DNA of 58,445 nucleotides from a virus: the UHGV virus genome UHGV-0021275; one strand, given 5' to 3'. The notes beneath the pieces are model-generated. The model had not been told where the DNA came from and ran no database searches. It saw nothing but the letters and a program-made list of their open reading frames with translations. A program made the position numbers and the translations under genes. Every line of letters begins with the position of its first letter. The stretch's first letter is position 1. Positions 55,815-56,501 of this stretch are shown here, piece by piece.

Positions 55815-56501
55815 ATGAATTATCTGCAAGACCCACGTATTCGTGACTTCCTGGACATACTGGCTAAGGCTGAGGGCACGTACGGAAAAGGTGATAACGG
55901 TTATAACGTTGCGTTCGGTGGTGACACAACTGTCGGTTATGACGCGCATCCAGGGCAGTACTACGAGTTTACGCAGACAGATGGGAAGAAAAACCGGACG
56001 TCTGCGGCCGGACGTTATCAGTTTATCAAGCCTACGTATGACACGTTGGCACAACGTCTTGGCGTAAACGACTTTTCCCCGGAGACACAGGACCGTATGG
56101 CACTGGAATTGATTCGTGAGAATGGTGCACTGGACGATGTATTGGGCGGGAATTATGAAGCTGCAATAAATAAGTTGGGTGGTGTATGGGCCAGCTTACC
56201 ATCCAGTACCGCACCGCAACCTCACCGTTCTATGGCTGAGTTATTGGGTAACCAGATGCCAATACAGCTTGTGAATCAGGGCGGTACGCCAATGATTGCG
56301 GCACCGGAGAATGCGTTCGAACGTGATCATATGATGGGCTTCTATACGGCAGGGCATTCTCCAGAAATGCAGGGTTTGCTGACGAATGCATTAGCACGTG
56401 TCAGTGAAGCGCGACAGTCACTAATGAGTGAGAAAGCATTTTTTGATGACTTGCCTATGGACCTTGATAGCGACTTACTGGATTTGATTGACCGGGCGTA
56501 A
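55815..56501 (+). CDS. Lambda-R-like lytic transglycosylase (GH104-type), probably virion-associated
   Basis: 228 aa. FLDILAKAEGT ... GYNVAFGG ... SAAGRYQF ... LGVNDFSPETQDRMALELIRENGAL ... VWASLP parallels lambda R (FLDMLAWSEGT, GYDVIVGG, TGAGRYQLL, LGLKDFSPKSQD, IWASLP). Sits in the structural module, not the lysis cassette. Confidence 0.75.
   Translation: MNYLQDPRIRDFLDILAKAEGTYGKGDNGYNVAFGGDTTVGYDAHPGQYYEFTQTDGKKNRTSAAGRYQFIKPTYDTLAQRLGVNDFSPETQDRMALELIRENGALDDVLGGNYEAAINKLGGVWASLPSSTAPQPHRSMAELLGNQMPIQLVNQGGTPMIAAPENAFERDHMMGFYTAGHSPEMQGLLTNALARVSEARQSLMSEKAFFDDLPMDLDSDLLDLIDRA

What the first reader, a model, noticed from the sequence alone, without database searches (positions are those of the whole stretch)
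55815..56501. Second, unrelated muralytic enzyme: lambda-R-like lytic transglycosylase in the structural module
Besides the GH24 endolysin in the lysis cassette (6595-7104), a 228-aa protein with a lambda-R-type transglycosylase domain and a ~90-aa C-terminal extension is encoded immediately upstream of the giant virion gene. Together with the YkuD-like domain this gives three different peptidoglycan-active folds; the latter two are probably virion-borne for cell-wall penetration at entry.
Basis: partly seen in the sequence, partly recalled or inferred. Interest (0 to 1): 0.45.

Follow-up and report, generated by a model that had tools for sequence, protein, structure and literature searches.

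The report
Virion-type lambda-R-like cell-wall-cutting enzyme
This phage gene encodes a lambda-R-type cell-wall-cutting enzyme joined to a conserved, previously unnamed tail module, and it most likely travels in the virus particle to open the cell wall at infection, which is a familiar strategy in an undescribed phage lineage.

Summary
ORF 55815-56501 (+) encodes 228 aa. Residues ~10-135 are homologous to phage lambda lysozyme R (PDB 1AM7/3D3D, E 2.5e-20), and the catalytic Glu (E20) is invariant.

The gene ends 4 nt before a 2,300-aa YkuD+LPD38 "polyvalent" giant gene that wraps around the ends of this circularly permuted genome. A complete holin-holin-GH24 endolysin-spanin cassette lies elsewhere (5975-7594).

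New finding: the ~90-aa C-terminal extension is a conserved, portable module.
- A profile of the module alone finds it at the extreme C-terminus of proteins whose N-terminal domains are lambda-R-type LT, SLT, M15 peptidase or M23 peptidase.
- Where context is available, these genes occupy the same slot directly upstream of a giant gene.
- The module matches no known fold, Pfam family or deposited phage genome.

Flanking genes have homologues that mass spectrometry places in virions of phage JC1. The nearest LT-domain relatives lie inside virion proteins, such as an autographivirus internal virion protein and the A-1(L) baseplate hub.

Best reading: a virion-borne entry enzyme, docked through its C-terminal module. 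Virion presence and enzyme activity are inferred, not shown. This is an ordinary kind of function with a modestly new modular variant.

The parts
55815..56501 (+). Gene for the 228-aa two-part protein (LT domain plus C-terminal module). An AAGGA Shine-Dalgarno-like motif lies about 9 nt upstream. The stop is TAA at 56499-56501.
55815..56225 (+). Lambda-R-type (GH104-like) lytic transglycosylase catalytic domain, aa 1-137. The catalytic Glu E20 (codon 55872-55874) corresponds to lambda R Glu19.
   Evidence: PHROG 17230 at 1.4e-51 and PHROG 90 at 1.6e-39
56226..56498 (+). Conserved portable C-terminal module, aa 138-228. Predicted as a beta-hairpin plus three helices, acidic, ending PxDLDxxLLDLIDRA. 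Proposed docking/incorporation module.
56506..58445 (+). 5' part of the 2,300-aa giant polyvalent virion-type gene. It continues at window position 1.
1..4963 (+). 3' part of the giant gene. The YkuD-like domain is at about 1346-1687, a TM-like segment at aa 1950-1968, and LPD38 at about 4001-4480. The C-terminal region is homologous to MS-verified virion protein gp69 of phage JC1.
50754..52400 (+). PHROG 511 'internal virion protein'. Homologue of JC1 gp61, which was MS-detected in virions.
52862..54660 (+). Two tandem paralogous genes (52862-53695 and 53710-54660; 34% identity). Weak homologues of JC1 gp64, a virion-associated protein.
54664..55802 (+). Two small genes of the same module (54664-55074, PHROG 1365; 55074-55802, Q-rich, no family) directly upstream of the LT gene.
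5975..7625 (+). Separate complete lysis cassette. It holds holin (Phage_holin_8, 5975-6310), holin (Phage_holin_3_7, within ORF 6222-6620), GH24 endolysin (6595-7104) and a putative spanin (7070-7594; assigned by position only). It ends with the only strong terminator of the late arm (7599-7625).

Best explanation
The gene encodes a virion-associated peptidoglycan-cleaving enzyme. It has an N-terminal lambda-R-type lytic transglycosylase domain (catalytic Glu20) and a ~90-aa C-terminal module. It is made late, probably translationally coupled to the giant gene 4 nt downstream, and is packaged with the ejection or internal-virion proteins. At infection it is released with them into the periplasm, where it cuts glycan strands locally so the ejection complex and DNA can cross the wall. 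The C-terminal module is the constant 'handle' that docks whichever hydrolase occupies this slot onto the giant LPD38 protein or the ejection assembly. This is functionally analogous to T7 gp16-N, where an LT domain is followed by a 'molecular tape' that binds gp15. Shown here: the homology, the conserved catalytic residue, the synteny, the portability of the module and its strictly C-terminal position. Inferred: packaging, ejection, enzymatic activity and the docking partner.
For: 1. Enzyme identity. Lambda lysozyme is matched at E 2.5e-20, and E20 aligns with Glu19. E20 and the lambda-R motifs are invariant in 24 family members. The model's top fold matches are 1AM7/3D3D.

2. Not the endolysin. 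A full holin-holin-GH24-spanin cassette exists elsewhere. LT and a separate PF00959 endolysin co-occur in every relative examined.

3. Fixed slot. The gene lies directly upstream of the giant gene in L001/L002 (82% identity), L004, L005 (42%), L006, L014 and L016.

4. Portable module. The module-only profile finds 30 non-artefact proteins, all with the module within 4 residues of the C-terminus. Their N-terminal domains are lambda-R-type LT, SLT, Peptidase_M15_4 or Peptidase_M23. The M15 version sits in the same slot before a 2,910-aa LPD38 giant, with a separate endolysin. The genes downstream of the SLT and M23 versions match giant N-termini.

5. Virion neighbours. The 548-aa protein matches JC1 gp61 (E 1e-33), the paralogs match gp64, and the giant's C-terminal region matches gp69 (E 9e-12). 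All three JC1 proteins were MS-detected in virions (PMC9144972).

6. The same LT domain occurs in virion proteins: aa 1-125 of the 1,532-aa internal virion protein of Ralstonia phage BOESR1, the baseplate hub of cyanophage A-1(L), PDB 8KEA, and ZF40 gp57.

7. The closest LT-only relatives lie in a myovirus baseplate module and in a P22-like ejection-protein module that has its own GH19 endolysin.

8. Both halves are under purifying selection, with dN/dS 0.04 and 0.08.

9. Literature. LPD38 and lysozyme domains are typical of phage polyvalent proteins delivered at invasion (PMC5512222). T7 gp16-N architecture and role are described in PMC8954989.
Against: There is no direct evidence that the protein is in virions, is ejected or is active. 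No cultured phage carries the module, so no proteomics can be transferred for it. Most lambda-R homologues in GenBank phages are endolysins. The gene is probably co-transcribed with the lysis genes, so a lysis-time contribution cannot be excluded. The docking role of the module is purely inferential: it resembles no known fold and shows no similarity to the region after the LT domain in the fused autographivirus protein. The M15 and M23 versions each rest on one contig. The JC1 proteins in the equivalent slot (gp67, gp68) are not homologous to this protein.
Confidence: 0.65

Rival explanations
1. Virion-borne, but mounted externally on the tail, nozzle or tip rather than packaged inside the head with the ejection proteins. 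In that case the C-terminal module would anchor it to a tail protein.
For: The same LT domain is part of a baseplate hub (8KEA). It also sits next to baseplate genes in ZF40 and in a Pectobacterium prophage. The window's tail genes are poorly identified, so neighbours such as 54664-55802 could be tail parts.
Against: The slot lies between homologues of internal or virion-associated proteins and the giant polyvalent protein. In podoviruses of the T7 type the homologous domain is on the internal protein. Nothing here separates the two locations decisively.
Confidence: 0.15
2. A second, non-packaged lysis enzyme: an auxiliary endolysin released by the holins that complements the GH24 muramidase at the end of infection.
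For: The lambda R family is best known as endolysins, and most tblastn hits are annotated so. The protein has no signal or TM segment, like a holin-dependent cytoplasmic endolysin. It probably shares a late transcript with the lysis cassette.
Against: It lies about 7 kb upstream of the lysis cassette, separated from it by the giant gene and two others. This position is conserved to 42% identity, always with a separate endolysin. The C-terminal module and slot persist with four different catalytic domains next to giant genes. The protein is strongly acidic, pI 4.6. The closest domain relatives are in virion proteins or structural modules.
Confidence: 0.12
3. The module is the primary functional unit, for example an assembly chaperone, plug or adaptor for the giant protein. 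The attached hydrolase would then be dispensable or even inactive cargo.
For: Stand-alone versions of the module (80-131 aa) exist. One is encoded directly upstream of a large ORF with no enzyme attached.
Against: The catalytic Glu and all lambda-R motifs are invariant, and the LT half is under even stronger purifying selection than the module. Every swapped partner is a peptidoglycan-active domain, which argues that wall cleavage itself is selected. The stand-alone cases are on short contigs.
Confidence: 0.06

Closest known systems
Phage lambda endolysin R (lytic transglycosylase, CAZy GH104; PDB 1AM7, 3D3D)
   Same: Homologous catalytic domain over about 126 residues (34-36% identity in the structural alignments), the same catalytic Glu, and the same predicted fold. 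NCBI names an 82%-identical homologue 'glycoside hydrolase family 104 protein'.
   Different: Lambda R is a 158-aa single-domain endolysin in the S-R-Rz cassette. This protein has an extra conserved ~90-aa module, lies in the structural/ejection module next to a giant virion-type gene, is acidic, and coexists with a separate GH24 endolysin.
T7 gp16 N-terminal region (LT domain 1-156 plus 'molecular tape' 157-228), and the internal virion protein D of other Autographiviridae
   Same: A wall-cleaving domain followed by a short segment, associated with a very large ejected protein (PMC8954989). In Ralstonia phage BOESR1 the lambda-R-type domain itself is the N-terminus of the 1,532-aa internal virion protein.
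   Different: T7 uses an SLT/GH23-type domain. Here the enzyme is a separate polypeptide encoded 4 nt upstream of the giant gene rather than fused to it. The C-terminal module shows no detectable similarity to the corresponding region of the fused protein.
Lysozyme-bearing phage 'polyvalent proteins' (Iyer et al. 2017, PMC5512222), including the Bcep22/JC1 DarB-like giant virion proteins
   Same: The adjacent giant has the phage-specific LPD38 domain, and its C-terminal region is homologous to JC1 gp69, an MS-verified virion protein. Peptidoglycan-active domains are a recurrent polyvalent-protein theme.
   Different: The muralytic enzyme is not a domain of the polyvalent protein. It is a separate small protein with its own conserved C-terminal module. 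The giant carries a YkuD-like domain instead.
Baseplate hub gp15 of cyanophage A-1(L) (PDB 8KEA)
   Same: It contains a homologous lambda-R-type domain (E 2.4e-7 by sequence, Foldseek prob 1.00) within a solved virion structure.
   Different: It belongs to a myovirus hub, is fused to endoglucanase and peptidase domains, and has a different virion location and architecture.

Membership tests
Lambda-R-type lytic transglycosylase (GH104 / family 4 LT) | Sequence homology to lambda R across the catalytic domain | tested here: met
   phmmer E 2.5e-20, query 10-135 aligned to chain 9-134 of 3D3D/1AM7
Lambda-R-type lytic transglycosylase (GH104 / family 4 LT) | Catalytic glutamate equivalent to lambda R Glu19 | tested here: met
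   E20 aligns with Glu19 in the WSEGT/AEGT motif and is invariant in 24 homologues. The catalytic role of Glu19 is taken from established knowledge.
Lambda-R-type lytic transglycosylase (GH104 / family 4 LT) | Lambda-lysozyme fold | tested here: met
   AF2 model pLDDT 82.6. Foldseek top hits are 1AM7/3D3D with prob 1.00 and TMt 0.66-0.75.
Lambda-R-type lytic transglycosylase (GH104 / family 4 LT) | Produces 1,6-anhydro-MurNAc ends (transglycosylase rather than hydrolase chemistry) | not testable with these tools
   Requires muropeptide analysis of digestion products.
   No Pfam family at E<=0.1 and no NCBIfam hit. Only PHROG 17230 and PHROG 90 match.
Virion-associated peptidoglycan hydrolase / ejection-module enzyme | Encoded within the structural/ejection module, with conserved synteny, and not in the lysis cassette | tested here: met
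Virion-associated peptidoglycan hydrolase / ejection-module enzyme | A separate dedicated endolysin with holin and spanin is present | tested here: met
   also seen in relatives
Virion-associated peptidoglycan hydrolase / ejection-module enzyme | Physical presence in purified virions and muralytic activity of particles | not testable with these tools
   Needs LC-MS/MS and a zymogram. Only neighbours' homologues are MS-verified, in JC1.
Canonical holin-dependent endolysin | Gene adjacent to holin and spanin genes | tested here: not met
   The lysis cassette is at 5975-7594. The LT gene is separated from it by the 6.9-kb giant gene and two further genes.
T7 gp16-type internal core protein | LT domain covalently fused to a large C-terminal membrane/DNA-translocation part; SLT-type catalytic domain | tested here: not met
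   The ORF is separate, with its own stop, at variable spacing and frame in relatives. The domain is lambda-R type, not SLT. There is no similarity of the module to the fused BOESR1 protein.
Phage polyvalent protein (applies to the neighbouring giant gene) | Very large multidomain late protein with LPD-type domains | tested here: met
   2,300 aa with LPD38 at 4.6e-16 and YkuD at 25.3 bits. LPD38 is also found in the giants of L004, L005, L011, L013 and L014.

The most novel reading that the evidence does not exclude
The ~90-aa C-terminal segment is a previously undescribed, autonomous 'docking' domain of a widespread, uncultured lineage of ~55-60 kb podovirus-like phages with LPD38 giant proteins. 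It recruits interchangeable peptidoglycan-cleaving enzymes (GH104 LT, SLT, M15, M23) to the ejection machinery through a free acidic C-terminal helix, and it can also exist as a stand-alone protein. If so, it defines a plug-in interface by which phages swap wall-breaching chemistry without changing the virion.
Probability: 0.45. Interest if true: 0.5.

Novelty: new variant of a known kind. Interest (0 to 1): 0.38.

Why it matters
Virion-borne wall-cutting enzymes are well known, so the function is not surprising. The comparison adds a concrete, testable modular rule. One fixed gene slot and one fixed C-terminal module hold four interchangeable catalytic chemistries, next to giant 'polyvalent' injected proteins whose biology is almost unexplored.

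This offers a handle for finding the docking site on the ejection machinery. It also gives an annotation rule for separating entry enzymes from endolysins in metagenomic phages, and a possible scaffold for loading foreign enzymes into phage particles. In addition, the phage lineage has no close relative among deposited phage genomes.

Tried and rejected
- **Pfam and NCBIfam on the 228-aa protein:** no hit.
- **megablast of 52000-58445 against GenBank phages:** no match.
- **blastn against complete E. coli genomes:** only a short 11% match to the neighbouring small gene, so no prophage copy.
- **tblastn of the module against phages:** none.
- **The search for homologous proteins with the module profile:** returned nothing, even though known members exist. 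I treat this as a technical miss, not as evidence.
- **hhalign of the module against the fused BOESR1 internal virion protein and against the divergent P0035 tail:** no meaningful match.
- **Two top hits of the module profile (P0121, P0122):** rejected. P0122 was inspected and is an ankyrin-repeat artefact; P0121 was not inspected and is dismissed only because it shows the same many-stretch pattern (24 stretches).
- **Programmed frameshift or sequencing error splitting an LT-giant fusion:** rejected. The stop-start spacing and frame vary among relatives (+4, +1, 0, -4 nt), and the module ends at a true protein C-terminus in all 30 hits.
- **Co-occurrence of the module with a giant N-terminal motif (PEWQNASL...):** examined, but a similar motif also appears in a module-less relative, so it is not informative.
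- **ZF40 paper:** checked for proteomics of gp57 and found none.

Full report
**Observation**

The ORF is real and sits at the stated coordinates: 55815..56501 on the + strand, ATG start, 228 aa. An AAGGA ribosome-binding motif lies upstream.

Residues 10-135 align with residues 9-134 of phage lambda lysozyme R (PDB 3D3D/1AM7) at E 2.5e-20. The motifs AEGT, GYNVxFGG, HP, SAAGRYQ, DFSPxxQD, GAL and WASLP are shared, and E20 sits on the catalytic Glu19.

An AlphaFold model built from 24 homologues has mean pLDDT 82.6. Its only significant PDB fold matches are the two lambda lysozyme entries and the baseplate hub of cyanophage A-1(L), 8KEA.

Pfam and NCBIfam do not recognise the protein. PHROGs does: 17230 'tail fiber protein/lysozyme' at 1.4e-51 and 90 'endolysin' at 1.6e-39. 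NCBI names an 82%-identical homologue 'glycoside hydrolase family 104 protein'.

About 93 residues follow the lambda-R-homologous region. The protein has no signal or TM-like segment and is acidic, with pI 4.6.

**Surroundings**

The window is a circular permutation of a whole ~58.4-kb phage genome. The ORF that starts at 56506, 4 nt after the LT stop, runs through the window end into 1..4963 and encodes 2,300 aa. This giant protein carries Pfam YkuD (aa 1096-1209, just above threshold) and LPD38 (aa 1981-2140).

The late arm reads, in order:
- terminase (38324-39814);
- portal-like protein (39811-41712);
- major head protein (45747-46694);
- SU10-type adaptor (48202-48894);
- a PHROG 511 'internal virion protein' (50754-52400);
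- two tandem paralogs (52862-54660; 34% identity);
- two small genes;
- the LT gene and then the giant gene;
- two small genes;
- a complete lysis cassette: two holins, a GH24 endolysin (PF00959, 1.8e-28) and a putative spanin (assigned by position; no spanin family was matched).

The only strong terminator of this arm follows the spanin at 7599-7625. None separates the LT gene from the lysis genes. The LT and the GH24 endolysin share no detectable sequence similarity.

The other arm encodes DNA polymerase A, a primase-helicase, an SNF2 helicase, a ParB-like protein and ArdA. No deposited phage is close at the DNA level.

**Relatives**

About 35 of the 120 nearest homologues share the full two-part architecture at 42-97% identity, and many lie on 54-60 kb contigs.

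In every relative read, the gene lies directly upstream of a 2,160-2,910-aa giant gene. This holds for L001/L002, L004, L005, L006, L014 and L016. A separate PF00959 endolysin was seen downstream in L001/L002, L004 and L005, where the downstream region was read and annotated.

The giants are mutually homologous and nearly all carry LPD38. The YkuD domain recurs in the giants paired with the LT version (L002, L004, L005). It is absent from the giant paired with an M15 enzyme (L011).

**The C-terminal extension is a portable module**

In the family alignment the extension is conserved: A162, P164, E169, A199, P214, D218 and I225 are invariant, and the terminus reads PxDLDxxLLDLIDRA. Between the window and its 82% relative, dN/dS is 0.036 for the LT half and 0.084 for the extension. 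dS is saturated, so these ratios are approximate.

A profile of the extension alone was searched against 1.84 billion representative proteins. It returned 32 hits, of which two were set aside as repeat artefacts (P0122 is an ankyrin-repeat protein on inspection; P0121 was judged from its 24 matched stretches only). In the other 30 the module ends within 4 residues of the C-terminus.

The N-terminal domains of these proteins differ:
- lambda-R-type LT (recognised by eye from shared lambda-R motifs, since Pfam does not detect this domain);
- SLT (PF01464): the eight hits submitted to Pfam that looked SLT-like all matched;
- Peptidase_M15_4 (one);
- Peptidase_M23 (one);
- no recognisable enzyme in P0131 (337 aa) and in six short proteins of 80-131 aa.

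The M15 version occupies the same slot: SU10 adaptor upstream, a 2,910-aa LPD38 giant immediately downstream and a separate GH24 endolysin. The ORFs downstream of the SLT and M23 versions match giant N-termini.

The module is predicted as a beta-hairpin plus three helices, with pLDDT 71.5. It has no significant structural neighbour in BFVD or PDB, no Pfam family, and no counterpart in any deposited phage genome.

**Evidence for a virion location**

Three window proteins have homologues in the Bcep22-like phage JC1:
- the 548-aa protein matches JC1 gp61 (E 1e-33);
- the paralogs match gp64;
- the giant's C-terminal region matches gp69 (E 9e-12).

All three JC1 proteins were detected by mass spectrometry in purified virions (PMC9144972).

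The same LT domain forms residues 1-125 of the 1,532-aa internal virion protein of Ralstonia phage BOESR1, at the T7 gp16 position. It is also part of the solved A-1(L) baseplate hub and lies in ZF40 gp57 beside baseplate genes.

LT-only relatives at 50-55% identity were sampled in three settings:
- before another giant gene;
- in an E217-type myovirus baseplate module;
- in a P22-like ejection-protein module of an Acinetobacter prophage that has its own GH19 endolysin.

The 85 nearest LT homologues that lack this module still carry other C-terminal tails, with a median of 89 aa. Lambda R has only about 24 residues after the domain.

**Mechanism**

The best-supported reading is a virion-borne entry enzyme, with confidence about 0.65. 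The LT domain would cleave glycan strands locally when the ejection proteins leave the particle. The C-terminal module would dock the enzyme to the giant polyvalent protein or the ejection assembly.

This parallels T7 gp16-N, in which an LT domain (1-156) is followed by a 'molecular tape' (157-228) that binds gp15 (PMC8954989). It also fits the view that lysozyme domains of phage polyvalent proteins breach the wall at invasion (PMC5512222).

The 4-nt spacing to the giant gene suggests coupled translation; that is an inference. Packaging, ejection, activity and the docking partner are not shown.

Three rivals remain:
- an externally mounted tail enzyme (0.15);
- a non-packaged auxiliary lysis enzyme (0.12);
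- a module-centred assembly role with dispensable cargo (0.06).

**Comparison and novelty**

The catalytic domain passes every testable membership criterion for the lambda-R/GH104 family. It fails those for a canonical endolysin, because of its context and architecture. It also fails those for a T7 gp16-type fusion, because it is a separate polypeptide, is not an SLT domain, and its module shows no homology to the fused protein.

Virion-associated peptidoglycan hydrolases and their mosaic shuffling are well known, so the function is ordinary. What appears undescribed is the conserved portable C-terminal module and the fixed 'hydrolase slot' in front of LPD38 giant genes, in a phage lineage known almost only from metagenomes. 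I rate this a new variant of a known kind, with interest about 0.38.

Noticed in passing
window 56506-58445 joined to 1-4963: The window is a circular permutation of a complete ~58.4-kb phage genome. The 2,300-aa giant ORF spans the window ends, with one codon split across the junction.
   Followed up: yes
window ~1346-1687 (giant aa 1096-1209): YkuD-like L,D-transpeptidase-fold domain with an intact SLGC(I)N cysteine motif. It recurs in the giants of the LT-bearing relatives (L002, L004, L005) but not in the giant paired with an M15 peptidase (L011). This hints at complementary glycan-cutting plus peptide-acting activities, but the M15 case is a single example.
   Followed up: partly
window 52862-53695 and 53710-54660: Tandem paralogous genes (34% identity, E 1e-36; PHROG 37635/8003). 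Both are weakly homologous to the MS-verified virion protein gp64 of Burkholderia phage JC1.
   Followed up: partly
L017 584-946, L018 150-512; proteins P0129, P0135, P0138, P0139, P0144, P0146: Stand-alone 80-131-aa versions of the C-terminal module with no enzyme domain. In L017/L018 the gene lies directly upstream of a long ORF that runs off the short contig.
   Followed up: partly
window 7599-7625: Perfect 11-bp-stem bidirectional terminator immediately after the putative spanin gene. It marks the junction between the rightward late arm and the leftward replication arm, and the GC skew changes sign near here and near 33-34 kb.
   Followed up: partly
window 31871-32617 (-): ArdA antirestriction protein (PF07275, 2.5e-32) in the early arm. 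Together with the giant polyvalent protein, this suggests investment in early anti-defence functions.
   Followed up: no
window 20206-21141 (-) and 9262-12381 (-): A ParB-like protein (PHROG 1033, 1e-50) and a 1,038-aa DUF927 primase-helicase. No integrase was noticed among the ORFs scanned, and the closest relative sits on a 60.7-kb stand-alone contig in an E. coli assembly (GCA_026493585.1). Lifestyle (lytic or plasmid-like carriage) is unresolved.
   Followed up: no
giant aa 1950-1968 (window ~3908-3964): The single TM-like hydrophobic segment of the giant protein, immediately before the LPD38 domain. It could be a membrane-insertion element.
   Followed up: no
L013 14-11629: A relative's giant gene (at least 3,871 aa) combines DarB-like helicase domains (AAA_34, Helicase_C_4) with LPD38. 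It links the window's YkuD-type giant to the Bcep22/JC1 DarB-like giants through the shared LPD38 C-terminal region.
   Followed up: partly
giant N-termini: window aa ~70-90, L002, L004, L005, L011, L012, L019: A short motif, P(E/D)(W/F)xNASLxRRxE(I/L)Y-like, recurs near the N-terminus of the giant proteins across the lineage. Its role is unknown, and it is not specific to phages carrying the module.
   Followed up: partly
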